DNA of 64,000 bases from contig OZ242366.1 in assembly GCA_965208945.1 (NCBI GenBank), forward strand, positions 2,899,827-2,963,826. The letters are read 5' to 3'. The notes beneath the pieces were generated by a model, which was given only the letters and a program-made list of their open reading frames with translations, had not been told where the DNA came from and did no database searches. The stretch is from Bryobacterales bacterium. Its GTDB lineage: Bacteria; Acidobacteriota; Terriglobia; Bryobacterales; UBA6623. Positions 2,660 to 52,730 of this stretch are shown piece after piece (position 1 is the stretch's first letter; each line of letters begins with the position of its first letter). The position numbers were made by a program, and so were the translations under genes.

Positions 2660-2862
2660 GCCTCCATTTCTCACCACATGGCGAGGCGAAGTGGGTGAGA
2701 GGGCTGTCAGGACTAGGAGCAAGCCGGGCGGAGGAAAAAGGCGCGAGCCGCTTGGCGCGCGCAGGCGTACTTGAACAGTACGTTGAGCACGGCAAGCAAG
2801 CGCAACGAAGTCCTGGCGGTCGTATCGCGTGCTTCGACCGTCGGGTGGTGAGAAATGCAGGC
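2660..2862 (+). repeat. PAL element copy A1 (long form): TA-flanked palindromic MITE-like repeat
   Basis: Termini GCCTCCATTTCTCACCAC ... GTGGTGAGAAATGCAGGC, apex GTACTTGAACAGTAC, TA on both flanks (2658-2659, 2863-2864). Starts 15 bp after the lysR stop. Confidence 0.85.
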
Positions 2863-9921: not shown

Positions 9922-10122
9922 CCTGCCTTTTTCGCCACGCGGCGAGGCGAAGCGCGTGAGAGGGCCGTCAGGACTAGGCGCAAGCCGGGCGGAGGAAAAA
10001 GGCGCGCGCCGCTTGGCGCGCGCAGGCGTACTTGAACAGTACATTGAGCACGGCAAGCAAGCGCAACGAAGTCATGGCGGTCATACCGCGTGCTTCGCCG
10101 TCGGGTGGTGAGACATGCAGGC
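9921..10122 (+). repeat. PAL element copy A2 (long form)
   Basis: Degenerate left terminus ACCTGCCTTTTTCGCCAC, starting on the last base of the selD TGA. Exact apex GTACTTGAACAGTAC. Right flank TA. Confidence 0.8.
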
Positions 10123-10220
10123 TAGGCCCCCGCCAATGGTTTTCACGAATCACGAGACACGAAACACGAATCACGGCCTTTTTCGTGTGCTTCGACCGTC
10201 GGGTGGTGAGAAAGGCAGGT
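10123..10220 (+). repeat. Tail module: GCCCCC..ATGG + heptad tract + solo PAL right arm
   Basis: TTTTCACGAATCACGAGACACGAAACACGAATCACGGCCTTTTT followed by CGTGTGCTTCGACCGTCGGGTGGTGAGAAAGGCAGGT and TA. The same layout occurs at 20623-20722, 51036-51134 and 52286-52362. Confidence 0.75.
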
Positions 10221-18695: not shown

Positions 18696-18874
18696 GCCTG
18701 CATTTCTCACCACGTGGCGAGGCGAAGTGCGTGAGAGGGCCGTCAAGACGAGGCACGAGCTGCTTGGCGCGCGCAGGCGTACTTGAACAGTACTTTGAGC
18801 ACGGCAAGCAAGCGTAACGAAGTCATGGCGGCCATATGGCGTGCTTCGACCGTCGGGTGGTGAGAAATGCAGGC
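18696..18874 (+). repeat. PAL element copy A3 (short form)
   Basis: Consensus termini, exact apex, TA on both flanks. The right terminus contains the ATG (18867) used by the scpA track ORF. Confidence 0.85.
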
Positions 18875-27537: not shown

Positions 27538-27716
27538 GCCTGCATTTCTCATCACGCGGCGAGGCGAAGTGCGTGAGAGGGCCGTCAGGACGAGGCGCGA
27601 GCCGCTTGGCGCGCGCAGGCGTACTTGAACAGTACGTTGAGCACGGCAAGCAAGCGCAACGAAGTCATGGCGGTCGTATCGCGTGCTTCGACCGTCGGGT
27701 GGTGAGAAATGCAGGC
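27538..27716 (+). repeat. PAL element copy A5 (short form)
   Basis: Consensus termini, exact apex. Left flank TA, right flank TG. Confidence 0.85.
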
Positions 27717-32481: not shown

Positions 32482-32684
32482 GCCTGCATTTCTCACCACG
32501 TGGCGAGGCGAAGTGCGTGAGAGGGCCGTCAGGACTAGGCGCAAGCCGGGTGGAGGAAAAAGGCGCGAGCCGCTTGGCGCGCGCAGGCGTACTTGAACCG
32601 TACGTTGAGCACGGCAAGCAAGCGCAACGAAGTCCTGGTGCTCGTATCGTGTGCTTCGACCGTCGGGTGGTGAGAAATGCAGGC
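32482..32684 (+). repeat. PAL element copy A7 (long form)
   Basis: Consensus termini, TA on both flanks, apex variant GTACTTGAACCGTAC. Confidence 0.85.
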
Positions 32685-48296: not shown

Positions 48297-49196
48297 CTAC
48301 AGGTCTTCGTCGGTCAAGGTGTAGTAGGCCTCCAGGTATTTCTCGGAGGTCTTTTCGATGATGTCGGGAGGAAGTTCGGGACCGGGAGGCGTTTTGTCCC
48401 AGTCGACCGTTTCGAGATAGTCGCGGACGAACTGCTTGTCGTAGGAAGGCTGTGGCTTGCCGGCCTGGTAGAACTCGAGCGGCCAGTAGCGGGAGGAATC
48501 GGGCGTAAGCACTTCGTCGCCGAGAACGACCTCGCCGTCGAGCCCGCCGAATTCGAACTTCGTATCGGCAAGGACCAAACCGCAGGCGAGGGCGTGTTGG
48601 CTGGCGCGGGAGTAGATGTCGAGGGTCAGGTCCCGGAGTTGCGCGCAGAGCTCCTCGCCGACGATTCCGGCGGCGCGCTCGAACGTGATGTTCTCGTCGT
48701 GACCGGTTTCGGCCTTGGTGGCGGGAGTGAAGATGGGTTCGGGAAGCAGTCCGTTCATGCGCAGGCCGGCGGACAGTTTGACGCCGCACACCTCGCCGGT
48801 TTGCTGGTACTCTTTCCAGCCCGAGCCGGAGATATAGCCGCGCGCAACGCATTCGATAGGCGCCATGTCGAGCTTCTTGACGAGCATCGAGCGCCCGTCG
48901 AGTTGGTCTTTGTAGGCGCGCAGGTTCTCGGGGTATTCATCGACGTCAGCCGTGACGAAGTGGGTGGGCACGACATCCTTGAGGAAGTCGAACCAGAACA
49001 TCGAGAGCTTCGTCAGCACCTCGCCTTTGTGCGGGATGCCGTTCGGTAGCACGACGTCGAAGGCCGAGATGCGGTCGGTCGCGATGAAGAGAAGGTGTTC
49101 GCCGGCGTCATAAATATCGCGCACCTTGCCGCGCGCAATCGGCTGTACGCCTTCGAGGTTGGTTTCAAGAAGCGGGGTCGGGGAGGTAACGGGCAT
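48297..49196 (-). CDS. purC: Phosphoribosylaminoimidazole-succinocarboxamide synthase
   Basis: 299 aa. GKVRDIYDAGEHLLFIATDRISAFDVVLPNGIPHKGEVLT. Confidence 0.9.
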   Translation of the reverse strand: MPVTSPTPLLETNLEGVQPIARGKVRDIYDAGEHLLFIATDRISAFDVVLPNGIPHKGEVLTKLSMFWFDFLKDVVPTHFVTADVDEYPENLRAYKDQLDGRSMLVKKLDMAPIECVARGYISGSGWKEYQQTGEVCGVKLSAGLRMNGLLPEPIFTPATKAETGHDENITFERAAGIVGEELCAQLRDLTLDIYSRASQHALACGLVLADTKFEFGGLDGEVVLGDEVLTPDSSRYWPLEFYQAGKPQPSYDKQFVRDYLETVDWDKTPPGPELPPDIIEKTSEKYLEAYYTLTDEDL

Positions 49197-49340
49197 TCTT
49201 TCTCAGGGGGAACAGAGGGAGACAGCTTGCAGGCTTGCTGCAACAGAGTCCGATGATGGTAACACGGAGTGGGACGAACGCGCCTCCATGCGCTGTCGGA
49301 ATCCATGCCGCTGTGTGCGGGGATGCGGGTCGCCGGTCTT

Positions 49341-49392
49341 AGCCTGCATGTCTCACCACGTGGCGAGGCGAAGTGGGTGAGAGGGCCGTCAG
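49341..49392 (+). repeat. Solo PAL left-arm fragment
   Basis: AGCCTGCATGTCTCACCACGTGGCGAGGCGAAGTGGGTGAGAGGGCCGTCAG, with TA on the left flank. Followed by ACATTTCTTCTGGAGCGAAC, a motif also found at 20597-20620. Confidence 0.75.
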
Positions 49393-49414
49393 ACATTTCT
49401 TCTGGAGCGAACTA

Positions 49415-49503
49415 GCCTGCATTTCTCACCACATGGCGAGGCGAAGTGTGTGAGAGGGCCGTCAGGACGAGGCGCGAGCTGCTTGGCGCGCGCAGGCGTA
49501 CTT
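49415..49503 (+). repeat. PAL element copy A9, left half (interrupted by the IS)
   Basis: Consensus left arm ending GCAGGCGTACTT. TA on the left flank. Confidence 0.85.
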
Positions 49504-49604
49504 ATGGGATGGTTCGCTCCCACTTCCGCTGCGTCGTCGAGTTCGGCCATGCTGGTAGCAACGGCCGTCCCCGGCCGCAGTTCACGAACCGAGAGGAAAC
49601 CATC

Positions 49605-50678
49605 ATGGCAACGACCCAGCGATCATCCCGCAAGAGCGTATGGAAGGAGGTCGTCACGATCGGCCTCGATCTAGCAAAACACAACGTCGACTTGGTCGGC
49701 TTGGACGCAACCGGCCGGGTGCTCACCCGTCGCCGCTACTCGAAGGGCAAGCTGCTGGAGGTGACCGCCCAGATGCAGCCCTGCCGTATCGGCATGGAAG
49801 CCTGCTGCGGCGCCCATCACCTGGGCCGCCAACTGCTGGCCCAGGGGCACGACGTGAAGCTGATGCCGCCCAAATATGTGAAGCCCTTTGTGAAGCGCGA
49901 CAAGAACGACTCGACGGACGCCGAGGCCTGCGCGGAAGCCTGTCTGCGGCCGAGCATGCGCTTCGTGGCGGTCAAGAGCGAGCAACAACTGTCGATGCAG
50001 TCGCTGCACCGCTATCGCTCGCGGCTGGTGGGCAACTCGACGCAGTTGATCAACCAGGCGCGCGCCTTTCTGCTGGAACGCGGCATCACCCTTCCACAGG
50101 GCAAGCGTTGGTTTGTGGTCCGTCTGCCGGAGATCCTCGAGGACGCCGATAACGGCCTGTCCGACGAAATGCGGGCGCTGCTGGCGGGCATGTTTGCCGA
50201 ATGGCAAGTGCTGGCAGAGAAGATTCAGCAAGTCAACACCTATCTGCTGAGGAAAGCGCAGGCGAGCGAGGCCTGCCGGCGGCTCAGAGAGATCCCCGGC
50301 ATCGGCGTGCAGACAGCGACGGCCTTGGTGGCGACGATCGGCAACGCCGAGGCCTTCGAGAAGGGGCGCGACGTCGCTGCTTGGTTGGGTCTGGTGCCGA
50401 GAGAGTACTCCAGCGGAGGCAAGCAGCGCTTGGGAGGCATCAGCAAGCGCGGCAACCGCTACGTCCGGACGCTGCTGGTGCACTGTGCCCGCTCGAGCCT
50501 CGACGTGCTCGCGAAGCGCAGCGACCAACTCGGCCAGTGGCTGCGGCGGATGCTCCTGAACAAAGATCGGCGGGTCGTGATCGTGGCGCTGGCGGCACGG
50601 CTGGCGCGCATCGCATGGGCCTTGCTGAGCAGCGGCCAGCGCTTCTCTCAACAGCGGCAACCAGCCCCGGCGGGTTAA
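49605..50678 (+). CDS. IS110-family DEDD recombinase/transposase
   Basis: ATG 49605 is preceded by GAGAGGA. VVTIGLDLAKHNVDLVGLD (DEDD N-terminal domain). IPGIGVQTATALVATIGN...AAWLGLVPREYSSGGKQRLGGISKRGNRYVR (C-terminal Transposase_20-type domain). Confidence 0.85.
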   Translation: MATTQRSSRKSVWKEVVTIGLDLAKHNVDLVGLDATGRVLTRRRYSKGKLLEVTAQMQPCRIGMEACCGAHHLGRQLLAQGHDVKLMPPKYVKPFVKRDKNDSTDAEACAEACLRPSMRFVAVKSEQQLSMQSLHRYRSRLVGNSTQLINQARAFLLERGITLPQGKRWFVVRLPEILEDADNGLSDEMRALLAGMFAEWQVLAEKIQQVNTYLLRKAQASEACRRLREIPGIGVQTATALVATIGNAEAFEKGRDVAAWLGLVPREYSSGGKQRLGGISKRGNRYVRTLLVHCARSSLDVLAKRSDQLGQWLRRMLLNKDRRVVIVALAARLARIAWALLSSGQRFSQQRQPAPAG

Positions 50679-50942
50679 CCGCCCTGCGGTCCGCCGTAGC
50701 ACTACCAGGAGCTCACAGTTTGTCTGCTTACTCCCGATTGATGGACAAAACGGTCGTACCGGCGTCACCGAATCCTGTTACTGTTCATGGCCCTCACAGG
50801 TCGGCGTACTTATGAGGAGCGGGACGTGCGGACCCCATCATGGCCCGGAACCAGCGCGGTTCCACCTAGAGGTCGGATATATTGGCGCAGACCAACGTTC
50901 AGCAAGAAGGAATAGGTGGACATCCCGGGAGCGAACCATATA
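50679..50942 (+). ncRNA. Candidate bridge/seek RNA region in the IS right non-coding end
   Basis: 264-nt non-coding right end versus 101 nt on the left. It contains GGCGTACTTATG (identical to the left target-IS junction), TACTGTTCA (reverse complement of the right target flank), ATATATTG (right IS end plus core) and the local hairpin GGAACC-agcgc-GGTTCC. Confidence 0.4.
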
Positions 50943-51034
50943 TTGAACAGTACGTTGAGCACGGCAAGCAAGCGCAACGAAGTCCTGGCGGTCATATCGC
51001 GTGCTTCGACCGTCGGGTGGTGAGAAATGCAGGC
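50943..51034 (+). repeat. PAL element copy A9, right half
   Basis: Resumes TTGAACAGTACGTTGAGCACGGCAAGC and ends GTGGTGAGAAATGCAGGC followed by TA. Confidence 0.85.
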
Positions 51035-51250
51035 TAGGCCCCCACCCATGGTTTTCACGAATCACGAGACACGAAACACGAATCACGGCCTTTTTTCGCG
51101 TGCTTCGACCGTCGGGTGGTGAGAAATGCAGGCTAGTCACAAGCCACTGCTTTTAAGGTTTTTCACGAATCACGAGACACGAAACACGAATCACGGCCTT
51201 TTCCAGACCCGAATCACGGCCTTTCCGTGGCTCGTATGGTGTCCGTTGGT

Positions 51251-51276
51251 ACTGAAGCCCTTCAGTCTTGTTTTTT
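51251..51276 (+). terminator. Hairpin + T-run module, copy 2
   Basis: ACTGAAGCCCTTCAGT then CTTGTTTTTT, downstream of the heptad tract starting at 51157. Confidence 0.3.
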
Positions 51277-51529
51277 CCGCCCCGGTCTGCTAAGCATGAT
51301 GGCGGCGAGGCACAGTCCGTGTGGGTCACGGATCAGGTCTTCCAAGGCGTTCACTTGCCATAAGCCACTGATTTCAAGGGTTTTAACGAAACACGAAACC
51401 CGAGACGCGGGTTCGCCTGGCGCGCCGCGCAGGCCAGCGCGAATTCCGAGGTTTTCACGAAACACGAGACCCGAGACACGAATCACGGCTTTTTCCAGCC
51501 ACGGTTTTGTCGAATCGTTGCCTCTTGGT

Positions 51530-51553
51530 ACTGAAGGGCTTCAGTCTTTTTTT
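51530..51553 (+). terminator. Hairpin + T-run module, copy 3
   Basis: ACTGAAGGGCTTCAGT then CTTTTTTT, downstream of the heptad tract starting at 51450. The loop differs from copies 1-2 while the stem is conserved. Confidence 0.3.
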
Positions 51554-52105
51554 CGGCCGGAAGCCGGTGTAGGTTGAGAGTGATGACGCCGTTGCTGGGA
51601 CCGAAAACCTCATCCGCGCCCGTCGGGGCCAAGTCGGGTGGGGACAGAAGAGCCGCCCGGTCGCTGCTTTCCTGCGCGTTGTGGCGCGGCATGGGGCGGC
51701 TATGGCGCGGCATGGGCGGCATGGGGCGCCCCGAGCCGCTGTCCGCGCACCGTCCGCACCAGCAACAGGGCCTTTCAGGTATTCACGAAACCCGAGACGC
51801 GGGTTCGCCTGGCGCGCCGCGCAGGCCCGCGCGAATTCCGAGGTTTTCACGAAACACGAGACCCGAATCACGGCTTTTATGCTTTTCACGAGTCACGGCT
51901 TTTATCGCCGCCCGGTCGCTGCTTTCCTGCGCGTTGTGGCGCAACGGTTGCGCCGCTATGGCGTGGCTATGGAGCGGCTGTGGCGCGTGTGGGGCGGCTA
52001 TGGCGATAGCGCGGCATGGGCGGCCGTGGAGCGGCATGGGCGGCATATTGCCCCCGCGCCAGTGTCCCCGCTCCCGTCAGCCTTTCTCGGTCGGCCTCAC
52101 GACTG

Positions 52106-52284
52106 GCCTGCATTTCTCACCACGTGGCGAGGCGAAGTGCGTGAGAGGGCCGTCAGGACGAGGCGCGAGCCGCTTGGCGCGCGCAGGTGTACTTGAACAG
52201 TACATCGAGCACGGCAAGCAAGCGCAACGAAGTCATGGCGGTCATACCACGTGCTTCGACCGTCGGGTGGTGAGACATGCAGGC
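52106..52284 (+). repeat. PAL element copy A10 (short form)
   Basis: Consensus termini, exact apex. Flanks are TG / TT rather than TA. Confidence 0.85.
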
Positions 52285-52285
52285 T

Positions 52286-52362
52286 TGGCCCCCTCCCATG
52301 GTTTTCACGAATCACGGCCTTTTTTCGCGTGCTTCGACCGTCGGGTGGTGAGAAATGCAGGT
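52286..52362 (+). repeat. Tail module (short heptad stub + solo right arm)
   Basis: GGCCCCCTCCCATGGTTTTCACGAATCACGGCCTTTTTTCGCGTGCTTCGACCGTCGGGTGGTGAGAAATGCAGGT followed by TA. Confidence 0.75.
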
Positions 52363-52730
52363 TAGGTTCCAGAACATGCCCGCAGCCTCTTGTATTGGTT
52401 CGAAGCACCACGAACGGCGAGTCGGAACCGCCGAAAGATCCTGCCGGCGCCGCTCTCGCTCTTCCCGGCAACAGAGTCGGATACGCCCAGACAACCCGGA
52501 GCTGCAAGGTCATCTCAGGAGTCTGAAGTCGGCGGCGGAGCAACGGCCGCGAACCGCTGTCCCGGCGCCCTCTTGGCGCACGTTCTTGATGTATTTCAGG
52601 GGGGTCGGAGTTTATCTGTAGGCCGTCTGGACAACGATCCGGGATTTGATATAGTAGTACGGTCTGTAGAAAGCCCAGTGGCTGAAAACCCCTGTTTTGC
52701 GGGCCAGGTTTCAGCAAAGGAAGGTGTCTG

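What the first reader, a model, noticed from the sequence alone, without database searches (positions are those of the whole stretch)
49413..51036. IS110/IS1111-type element inserted exactly in the apical loop of a palindromic repeat, with target-matching segments in its long 3' non-coding end (candidate bridge/seek RNA)
Seen in sequence. PAL copy A9 is split. Its left half ends GCAGGCGTACTT (49503) and its right half resumes TTGAACAGTAC (50943). Six uninterrupted copies in this window (A1-A5, A10) read GTACTTGAACAGTAC at the same place, so they act as internal empty sites. They define a 1439-bp insert (49504-50942) bracketed by TT on both sides, sitting in the loop of the GTACT-tgaac-AGTAC apex. 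The insert has 12-bp subterminal inverted repeats (49510-49521 / 50927-50938) and one ORF with IS110-type DEDD and C-terminal domains. The non-coding ends are asymmetric: 101 bp on the left and 264 bp on the right. Inside the right end, 50803-50814 GGCGTACTTATG equals the left target-IS junction 49495-49506. 50779-50787 TACTGTTCA is the reverse complement of the right target flank 50944-52. 50877-50884 ATATATTG repeats the right IS end plus the TT core (50938-50945). Established knowledge. IS110-family recombinases are guided by an element-encoded bridge/seek RNA that pairs with target and donor DNA. The IS1111 subgroup has subterminal IRs and a long right end. Family members such as IS621 and ISPpu10 target REP-type palindromes. 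Inference. This is an intact IS whose guide RNA is programmed for the PAL apex, which would make the PAL family a multicopy landing pad.
Basis: partly seen in the sequence, partly recalled or inferred. Interest (0 to 1): 0.8.

Follow-up and report, generated by a model that had tools for sequence, protein, structure and literature searches.

The report
RNA-guided IS1111 element in palindromic repeat
This is an intact, recently active insertion sequence of the known IS1111 (IS110-family) type. Its own small guide RNA is written to match the tip of a high-copy palindromic repeat, so it is a clear new example of an already described mechanism, not a new kind of system.

Summary
A 1439-bp element (49504-50942) splits one copy of a ~180-nt palindromic repeat (PAL) at GGCGTACTT|GAACAGTA. 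Six uninterrupted copies of the apex 15-mer in the window serve as empty sites.

The element encodes a 357-aa IS110-family DEDD/Ser recombinase. It has 13-bp subterminal inverted repeats and a 264-bp right end.

The right end holds a 146-nt structured RNA (50750-50895). A covariance model built from it finds a counterpart in all 50 related elements searched, and in IS4321. 96% of base-pair cells are paired, and 21 of 34 pairs show compensatory changes.

Two loop strands (50779-50787 and 50803-50811) match the two target flanks. In relatives with the same scaffold but other insertion sites, these strands change together with the flanks (0 of 5000 permutations reach the observed match). Two further strands match the element's own ends and covary with them.

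A 100% identical element (L113) and a second contig carrying the same transposase (L114) sit in other PAL copies. Copies 88-90% identical sit in further PAL copies, all at the same position and orientation.

It is also exactly what the 2024 seekRNA and bridge RNA papers described for IS1111 elements, including REP targeting and donor binding in a multiloop. Verdict: a new member of a known kind, of modest interest.

The parts
49415..49503 (+). Left half of the interrupted PAL repeat, ending in the left target flank GGCGTAC plus the TT core (49495-49503)
   Evidence: Aligns with the left halves of 7 intact PAL copies. A PAL terminus lies at 49415.
49504..50942 (+). IS1111-type insertion sequence, 1439 bp without either TT. 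By the family's 7/3-bp extension convention it is 49502-50942 (1441 bp).
   Evidence: Absent from the intact PAL copies. A copy identical base for base lies in another PAL copy (L113). Relatives about 77% identical share the same termini at other sites.
49504..49521 (+). Left end: extension ATGGG (49504-49508) plus the 13-bp subterminal inverted repeat ATGGTTCGCTCCC (49509-49521)
   Evidence: Read directly. The same geometry appears in 73 of 77 family loci.
49605..50678 (+). Transposase/recombinase gene, 357 aa. Catalytic candidates are D22, E65, D102, D105 and S270, the last in the motif GLVPREYSSG.
   Evidence: Pfam PF01548 and PF02371. NCBIfam NF033542 'IS110 family RNA-guided transposase' at 335 bits against a cut-off of 140. 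Alignment to IS621 (8wt6) and ISCro4 (9t56) places the D/E/D/D/S residues.
50750..50895 (+). Guide RNA gene (seekRNA/bridge RNA type). Helices: P1 50752-55/50890-93; target arm outer stem 50759-70/50819-31; inner stem 50774-76/50815-17; target hairpin 50788-92/50799-803; donor hairpin 50841-45/50871-75 with inner helix 50847-52/50858-63.
   Evidence: nhmmer finds the scaffold in 76 of 80 related loci. Alifold supports the target arm, with 13 of 19 pairs compensatory. CM R1 hits all 50 related loci searched plus the window, 52 matches in all. Pair counts: 96.4% paired, 21 of 34 pairs compensatory. R1 also hits the IS4321 right end at 69.7 bits.
50779..50787 (+). Right-target guide (5' strand of the target internal loop): TACTGTTCA, complementary to the top strand T-GAACAGTA of the PAL apex
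   Evidence: It covaries with the right flank in relatives.
50803..50814 (+). Left-target guide (3' strand of the target loop): GGCGTAC-TT, identical to the top strand and so complementary to the bottom strand. It is followed by a constant ATG that equals the first 3 nt of the IS left end.
   Evidence: It covaries with the left flank. The role of the ATG is inferred only.
50834..50838 (+). Left-donor guide CCCAT, complementary to the IS left end ATGGG. It lies in the multiloop strand 50832-50840.
   Evidence: CCCAT pairs with ATGGG and UCCAU with ATGGA across the family.
50877..50883 (+). Right-donor guide ATATATT, equal to the IS right end ATATA plus the TT core. It lies in the multiloop strand 50876-50889.
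   Evidence: The guide 5-mer equals the last 5 nt of the right end in 49 of 52 distinct elements, in three covarying versions: ATACG, ATATA and ATACA. IS4321 has ATAGA in both places.
50917..50944 (+). Outward sigma-70-like site TGGACA-16 nt-TATATT, built from the right end plus the TT core. It is a candidate junction promoter.
   Evidence: It is the only promoter-like site in 49400-51050 (10 of 12 positions; 0.3 expected). Its function is inferred from the junction promoters known for ISEc11 (PMC11187229).
50927..50942 (+). Right end: subterminal inverted repeat GGGAGCGAACCAT (50927-50939) plus the 3-bp extension ATA
50943..51036 (+). Right half of the interrupted PAL repeat, starting with the TT core and the right target flank GAACAGTA

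Best explanation
This is an intact, recently mobile IS1111-group insertion sequence of the IS110 family. Downstream of its DEDD/Ser recombinase gene it encodes a ~146-nt guide RNA of the seekRNA/bridge RNA type.

The RNA folds into a three-way junction. One arm carries an internal loop. The 5' strand of that loop pairs with the top strand of the right target flank (T-GAACAGTA). The 3' strand pairs with the bottom strand of the left flank plus core (GGCGTAC-TT). The two single strands of the junction multiloop pair in the same way with the element's own ends (ATGGG and ATATA-TT).

The recombinase-RNA complex would therefore bring the joined ends of an excised circular copy together with a PAL apex and exchange strands at the shared TT. 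This inserts the element without a target duplication. Because the PAL repeat is very abundant, the genome offers many identical landing sites: five perfect unoccupied 17-nt sites lie in this window alone.

Shown here: the anatomy, the conserved fold, the covariation of guides with targets and with donor ends, and repeated insertions at the same PAL position. Inferred from published work on relatives: transcription of the RNA, the circular intermediate, catalysis and strand exchange.
For: Anatomy and protein family:
- establish the element's layout, the family assignment and the catalytic residues.

Same site used repeatedly:
- An identical IS (1439/1439) lies in another PAL copy (L113), and L114 carries the same transposase in a third.
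- Copies 88-90% identical lie in further PAL copies in three other assemblies.

Guides covary with targets:
- Relatives about 77% identical share termini and scaffold but sit at other sites, and their guide blocks match those sites. Examples are TTGAATT|TGCCTGG in L002/L003/L084 and CAAAGTT|GGTGACG in L005/L006. In L081, only the right flank CCGGAAC could be checked.
- Across the 68 distinct guide/flank combinations (62 with a left flank, 67 with a right flank), the left guide matches 4.9 of 7 positions against 2.0 for non-cognate pairs. The right guide's longest matching run is 6.8 against 3.4. None of 5000 permutations reaches either value.

Guides covary with donor ends:
- 49 of 52 distinct elements match exactly, in three versions.

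Fold:
- Searches support the secondary structure.

Link to named IS1111 members:
- The same RNA model hits the right end of IS4321. There the guide blocks match the flanks in that plasmid, TTTATTT and TTCCGTTTTC. I recognise this sequence from memory as the Tn21-type inverted repeat that IS4321 is reported to target.
- It also hits a Klebsiella IS110-family element (28.6 bits, E 9e-8) whose guide blocks also match its flanks.

Agreement with the literature:
- Strand order and terminal geometry agree with PMC11187229.
- Donor binding in a multiloop agrees with PMC11208160.
Against: - There is no expression or biochemical evidence for this element.
- The single-sequence MFE fold of the right end is no better than shuffles (z = 0.48), so the structure rests on comparative data. 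The pair counts come from a model-fitted alignment.
- One close relative (L007) sits between flanks that do not match its guides.
- The register of the right-target guide relative to the scaffold shifts by 1-2 nt among relatives.
- No Rfam family matches the RNA.
Confidence: 0.9

Rival explanations
1. The protein alone, or the DNA structure, selects the target. On this view the recombinase recognises the extruded PAL hairpin or cruciform tip, and the right-end matches to the target are incidental or merely stabilising.
For: The site lies at the edge of the apical loop of a very stable ~180-nt palindrome (z = -7.9). Several IS1111 and IS110 members are found in potentially folded targets such as REP and attC sites (PMC11187229).
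Against: Relatives with identical termini and nearly identical scaffold insert at non-PAL sites that match their own changed guide blocks. The family-wide guide/flank covariation has 0 of 5000 permutations reaching it. In ISEc11 the RNA is experimentally required and reprogrammable (PMC11187229).
Confidence: 0.04
2. The element is a decayed or immobile relic. It was once inserted by an RNA-guided mechanism, but the gene or the RNA no longer works.
For: Only one copy lies in the 64-kb window, although five perfect targets are free. There are no expression data.
Against: The ORF is intact and carries all five catalytic residues. The guides match the target perfectly, 9 + 9 nt. A base-for-base identical copy occupies a different PAL copy, L113, which implies recent movement.
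Confidence: 0.04
3. The matches between the right end and the flanks are chance or compositional.
For: A 9-nt same-sense match to the GC-rich target also occurs by chance inside the ORF. Each single 9-mer appears in about 1.2% of shuffles.
Against: Both matches together occur in 2 of 5000 shuffles. They lie in the two strands of one conserved internal loop. They change in step with the flanks in relatives.
Confidence: 0.01

Closest known systems
IS1111-group elements with experimentally shown seekRNAs (ISEc11, ISKpn4, ISPst6, ISPa11; Siddiquee et al. 2024, PMC11187229)
   Same: - DEDD plus PF02371 transposase with the GL-P----SG motif.
- 11-13-bp subterminal inverted repeats with 7-bp left and 3-bp right extensions.
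- Long non-coding region downstream of tnp that encodes the RNA.
- Top-strand match lies 5' of the bottom-strand match, and the two matches overlap at the insertion point.
- No target duplication.
- ISPa11 likewise targets a REP palindrome.
   Different: - Different host lineage: the closest relatives are Bryobacterales MAGs (Acidobacteriota).
- Different target: the apex of a ~180-nt PAL repeat.
- Transposase of 357 aa, slightly longer than the 330-350 aa quoted for the family.
- Nothing has been tested experimentally for this element.
[quoted passage not shown]
   Same: The transposase is about 41% identical over 87% of its length. The RNA model built here hits the IS4321 right end at 69.7 bits. 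The guide blocks there match the flanks TTTATTT and TTCCGTTTTC, and the donor guide ATAGATT matches its right end.
   Different: Different guide sequences, different subterminal repeats (ATGGTCACTCCC) and a different left extension.
IS621 bridge RNA system (Durrant et al. 2024, PMC11208160; Hiraizumi et al. 2024, PMC11208158)
   Same: One RNA recognises both target and donor, each through two strands flanking a 2-nt core. The catalytic residues D/E/D/D and Ser are conserved.
   Different: - The RNA lies in the right end downstream of the gene, not in the left end.
- The order of the top- and bottom-strand guides is reversed.
- Donor-binding nucleotides lie in a multiloop closed by a long-range helix, not in a second internal loop. 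Durrant et al. already note this for many IS1111 elements.
- The core is TT, not CT.
- The subterminal repeats are long.

Membership tests
IS1111 group of the IS110 family | N-terminal DEDD (RuvC-like) domain with the four acidic residues | tested here: met
   PF01548 at E = 9e-18. D22, E65, D102 and D105 align with the IS621 catalytic residues.
IS1111 group of the IS110 family | C-terminal PF02371 domain with the GL-P----S(T)G motif | tested here: met
   PF02371 at E = 6e-27. GLVPREYSSG lies at 262-271, and S270 aligns with the IS621 catalytic Ser.
IS1111 group of the IS110 family | Subterminal inverted repeats of about 11-13 bp with asymmetric terminal extensions (7 bp left, 3 bp right) | tested here: met
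   13-bp repeats at 49509-49521 and 50927-50939. The extensions are TTATGGG (49502-49508) and ATA (50940-50942). The convention is from PMC11187229.
IS1111 group of the IS110 family | The longer non-coding region lies downstream of tnp | tested here: met
   264 bp on the right against 101 bp on the left.
IS1111 group of the IS110 family | Site-specific insertion without target duplication | tested here: met
   Seven PAL insertions on separate contigs (window, L113, L114, L001, L004, L010, L088) lie at the same position and orientation. A single TT is shared between target and IS.
seekRNA / IS1111-type bridge RNA | A structured RNA in the right-end non-coding region, conserved across family members | tested here: met
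   Found in 76 of 80 loci by nhmmer. CM R1 hits all 50 related loci searched plus the window, 52 matches in all. 96.4% of cells are paired and 21 of 34 pairs are compensatory. R1 also hits IS4321.
seekRNA / IS1111-type bridge RNA | [quoted passage not shown] | tested here: met
   The segments are 50779-50787 and 50803-50811. Covariation: (0 of 5000 permutations).
seekRNA / IS1111-type bridge RNA | Donor-binding nucleotides matching the IS ends | tested here: met
   The right-donor guide equals the right end in 49 of 52 elements, in three covarying versions. The left-donor guide CCCAT or UCCAU pairs with ATGGG or ATGGA.
seekRNA / IS1111-type bridge RNA | The RNA is transcribed, binds the transposase and is required for circle formation and insertion | not testable with these tools
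   Needs RNA-seq, co-purification and transposition assays.
IS110 group proper (IS621-type bridge RNA) | Bridge RNA in the long left end upstream of the gene, with two internal loops; only short (2-3 bp) subterminal repeats | tested here: not met
   The RNA is in the right end, the left end is only 101 bp, the repeats are 13 bp, and the donor strands lie in a multiloop.
Any Rfam family | A match at or near the gathering score | tested here: not met
   No match at E <= 10 in 49300-51200. No match at gathering score in the whole window.

The most novel reading that the evidence does not exclude
The Bryobacterales subfamily is a natural reprogramming series. Within it the IS ends and sTIRs are identical and the RNA scaffold is nearly so, yet it carries at least six different guide pairs. 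These are PAL, TTGAATT|TGCCTGG, CAAAGTT|GGTGACG, and the programmes of L081, L101 and L007.

In this series the right-target guide pairs in registers that differ by 1-2 nt relative to the scaffold. A constant AUG after the left-target guide mirrors the first bases of the IS left end.

If real, this would mean two things. IS1111-type complexes would tolerate register slippage. They would also use a handshake-like contact on the bottom-strand guide. Neither is described for IS621.
Probability: 0.2. Interest if true: 0.45.

Novelty: new member of a known kind. Interest (0 to 1): 0.3.

Why it matters
The mechanism is already established. What this locus adds is a clean natural example.
- The recombinase gene is intact, and a 100% identical copy lies in another PAL copy.
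- The guides match perfectly a target present in many copies per genome.
- Close relatives carry different guide pairs on the same scaffold and donor ends.

Such a series is useful for annotating IS1111 guide RNAs, for which Rfam has no model. It gives rules for guide length and register that could inform engineering of IS1111-type recombinases. It also helps explain how a dense palindromic repeat family in Bryobacterales genomes can act as a harmless sink for an insertion sequence.

It does not change current understanding of the mechanism.

Tried and rejected
- Single-sequence RNA folding of 50730-50942 was no more stable than shuffles (z = 0.48). It was uninformative, so I used comparative folding instead.
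- Rfam gave nothing, either at E <= 10 on the locus or at gathering score on the whole window.
- Alifold on the MAFFT alignment of 51 sequences recovered only the target arm, because the variable-length donor hairpin was misaligned. A hand-drawn structure, a covariance model and a model-based alignment solved this.
- The exact-protein look-up with the 357-aa product found nothing. The 389-aa product from the upstream ATG at 49509, which gene callers chose, found two contigs. I still prefer the 357-aa start, because 49509 lies inside the inverted repeat; this was not tested.
- The metagenome scan with the 17-mer GGGAGCGAACCATATAT returned 29 loci, but only 7 carry the RNA. I take the other 22 as chance matches, as expected for a 17-mer in a collection of that size.
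- I considered PAL being a non-autonomous derivative of this IS. I rejected this because the PAL termini (GCCTGCATTTCTCACCAC) bear no resemblance to the IS ends.
- I considered an IS621-type donor internal loop (pairing TGCG with CGCA). I rejected it because the T/C variation at that position is compensated within the target-arm outer stem instead.
Full report
**What is in the sequence**

Reading 49300-51150 confirms every coordinate in the finding.
- A PAL copy is split between ...GCAGGCGTACTT (ending at 49503) and TTGAACAGTAC... (starting at 50943).
- The intervening 1439 bp start ATGGGATGGTTCGCTCCC and end GGGAGCGAACCATATA.
- The 21-mer GCAGGCGTACTTGAACAGTAC spanning the uninterrupted apex occurs 7 times in the window with at most one mismatch, against none in 100 shuffles.
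The 17-nt stretch covered by the two guides, GGCGTACTTGAACAGTA, occurs five times.
- An alignment of the seven intact copies shows a repeat of about 180-205 bp with inverted termini.
- One copy folds as single-stranded DNA into a near-perfect long hairpin (z = -7.9). Its tip is the stem CGTACT/AGTACG with loop TGAAC. The shared TT therefore lies at the 5' edge of the apical loop.
- PAL termini occur 27 times in the 64 kb.
- Only one copy of the IS ends is present in the window.

**The element**

- The ORF 49605-50678 (357 aa) hits Pfam DEDD_Tnp_IS110 and Transposase_20. It also hits the NCBIfam equivalog NF033542, 'IS110 family RNA-guided transposase', at 335 bits against a cut-off of 140.
- Its solved relatives are the IS621 and ISCro4 recombinases. 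The alignments place D22, E65, D102, D105 and S270 (in GLVPREYSSG) opposite the IS621 catalytic residues.
- The subterminal inverted repeat is 13 bp (49509-49521 / 50927-50939).
- If the TT is assigned to the left, the terminal extensions are 7 bp (TTATGGG) and 3 bp (ATA). This is the geometry given for the IS1111 family in PMC11187229.
- The non-coding ends are 101 bp on the left and 264 bp on the right.

**Relatives and other copies**

A scan of one genome per species returned 80 loci.
- L001, L004 and L010 are Bryobacterales MAGs, 88-90% identical in DNA. They carry the same element at the same position and orientation in other PAL copies.
- An exact-protein look-up found two metagenome contigs, L113 and L114. 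In L113 the IS is identical at all 1439 positions. L114 carries the same transposase, but its contig ends before the right end. Each sits in a different PAL variant with different outer flanks.
- A metagenome scan added one more PAL insertion, L088.
- L002, L003, L005, L006 and L007 are about 77% identical. They have the same termini, but their flanks are unrelated to PAL.

**The guide RNA**

Aligning the right ends of these close relatives shows a conserved scaffold broken by two variable blocks.
- In the window the blocks are TACTGTTC(A) at 50779-50787 and GCGTAC(TT) at 50804-50811.
- The first is the reverse complement of the right flank. The second is identical to the left flank.
- In L002/L003 the blocks read ACCAGGCA and GTTGAA, and the flanks are TTGAATT | T(T/C)TGCCTG.
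- In L005/L006 the blocks read CGTCACCG and ACAAAG, and the flanks are CAAAGTT | TTGGTGACG.
- In the metagenome relatives L081/L097/L107 the first block, CTGTTCCGGA, faces the right flank TTCCGGAAC.

The scaffold is much more widespread than this subfamily.
- A profile of the right end finds it in 76 of 80 loci. These include alphaproteobacterial elements whose transposases are only about 50% identical.
- The family layout is flank-TT|ATGG(G/A)-sTIR ... sTIR-(ATA/ACG/ACA)|TT-flank.
- Across the 68 distinct guide/flank combinations (62 with a left flank, 67 with a right flank), the left guide agrees with the seven bases upstream of the core at 4.9 positions on average, against 2.0 for non-cognate pairs.
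- The right guide's longest complementary run averages 6.8, against 3.4 for non-cognate pairs.
- None of 5000 permutations of guide and flank assignments reaches either observed mean.
- In the window copy alone, both 9-mers together arise in 2 of 5000 dinucleotide shuffles of the right end.

**Donor recognition**

Two further scaffold strands match the element's own ends.
- ATATATT (50877-50883) equals the right end plus core.
- CCCAT (50834-50838) is complementary to the left end ATGGG.
- Across the family the right-donor 5-mer equals the last five bases of the element in 49 of 52 distinct cases. It occurs in three covarying versions: ATACG, ATATA and ATACA.
- The left-donor 5-mer follows ATGGA or ATGGG.

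**Fold**

- The single-sequence fold is not informative.
- RNAalifold on six and on 51 sequences supports the target arm: an outer stem, a 3-bp inner stem, an 11+11-nt internal loop holding the two target guides, and a capping hairpin. 13 of 19 pairs show compensatory changes.
- By inspection I added a donor hairpin and a long-range closing helix. This gives a three-way junction whose multiloop strands are the two donor guides.
- A covariance model built on that structure matched all 50 related loci given to it plus the window, 52 matches in all.
- On the resulting alignment 96.4% of cells form standard pairs, 21 of 34 pairs have changes on both sides, and every helix is supported. No shuffle reaches these values, and sliding the partners drops pairing to 34-40%.
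- The caveat is that this alignment is fitted to the model.

**Link to named elements**

- The transposase is about 41% identical to those of IS4321 and IS5075.
- The RNA model hits the right end of an annotated IS4321 at 69.7 bits. It hits a Klebsiella IS110-family element more weakly (28.6 bits, E 9e-8). Both hits lie downstream of the gene.
- In IS4321 the guide blocks match the flanks in that plasmid, TTTATTT and TTCCGTTTTC. I recognise this sequence from memory as the Tn21-type inverted repeat that IS4321 is reported to target. The donor block ATAGATT matches its right end.

**Comparison with the literature**

- Siddiquee et al. (PMC11187229) showed that IS1111 elements carry a seekRNA downstream of tnp. 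It has a top-strand match 5' of a bottom-strand match. It is required for circle formation and insertion, and it is reprogrammable. ISPa11 targets REP sequences.
- Durrant et al. (PMC11208160) predicted bridge RNAs in the right end of 93% of IS1111 elements. They noted donor-binding nucleotides in a multiloop.
- Everything found here fits those descriptions. The element fails the specific IS621-type layout: RNA in the left end, two internal loops, short subterminal repeats.

**Expression**

- The only sigma-70-like site in 49400-51050 is TGGACA-16-TATATT at 50917-50944. It faces outward and is built from the right end plus the TT core.
- In a circle it would read into the left end, the gene and the RNA. 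This would be analogous to the junction promoters known for ISEc11. This step is inference.
- No separate promoter-like site precedes the RNA.

**Loose ends**

- L007 has an intact scaffold, but its flanks do not match its guides.
- The register of the right-target guide relative to the hairpin differs by 1-2 nt among relatives, even though the loop length is constant.
- The donor 5' strand does not fully pair with the core.
- The constant AUG after the left-target guide equals the first bases of the left end. It is almost invariant, so covariation cannot test whether it acts like the handshake guides of IS621.

**Verdict**

The element is a new, well-preserved and apparently active member of a known kind, so it carries modest interest.

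Noticed in passing
window 2660-2862, 18696-18874, 27538-27716, 32482-32684, 52106-52284 and others (27 termini in all): PAL is a dense family of imperfect palindromes of about 180-205 bp with inverted termini GCCTGCATTTCTCACCAC. One copy folds as ssDNA with z = -7.9. Some copies carry a 22-nt insert (TAGGCGCAAGCCGGGCGGAGGA). Rfam has no match. Its own origin and mobility are unknown.
   Followed up: partly
window 49342-49395 and 51098-51137: Orphan PAL arms lie just outside the IS-bearing copy: an extra left arm upstream and an extra right arm downstream. They look like nested or tandem PAL copies. The same right-arm duplication is seen at 10105-10220 and 52267-52362.
   Followed up: no
window 3281, 10148, 11448, 20648, 51060, 51168, 51460 (all + strand): A second repeat family, AATCACGAGACACGAAACACGAATCACGG, has 7 copies against 0 expected. 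It usually sits between a PAL right end and another PAL right arm. The stretch 51040-52400 is almost entirely repeats.
   Followed up: partly
L011 2759-2840 and 583-721: In this alphaproteobacterial relative the right end is followed directly by TT plus the left end of another copy (RE-TT-ATGGAATGGTCCGCCCC). This is a head-to-tail junction identical to a circle junction, which suggests a tandem dimer. A further RNA hit lies upstream in the same locus.
   Followed up: no
L007 1400-2821: This relative, about 77% identical with an intact scaffold and termini, lies between flanks (CCTTCAGCTT / TGTGGAATAG) that do not match its guide blocks (ATTTGG-TT / reverse complement TGCTTTTG). It may be an off-target insertion, or the flanks may have been rearranged later.
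   Followed up: partly
L005/L006 (CBDBHC010000002.1, about 2.1 Mb apart): Two copies in one genome share 40 nt of left flank and about 20 nt of right flank. Their target may therefore also be a repeated sequence. Their right-target guide pairs one base out of register compared with the window element.
   Followed up: no
window 48297-49196 (- strand): The ORF translation looks like a SAICAR synthetase (purC), judged by eye only and not searched. It ends about 150 bp upstream of the PAL/IS cluster, so the cluster would be intergenic.
   Followed up: no
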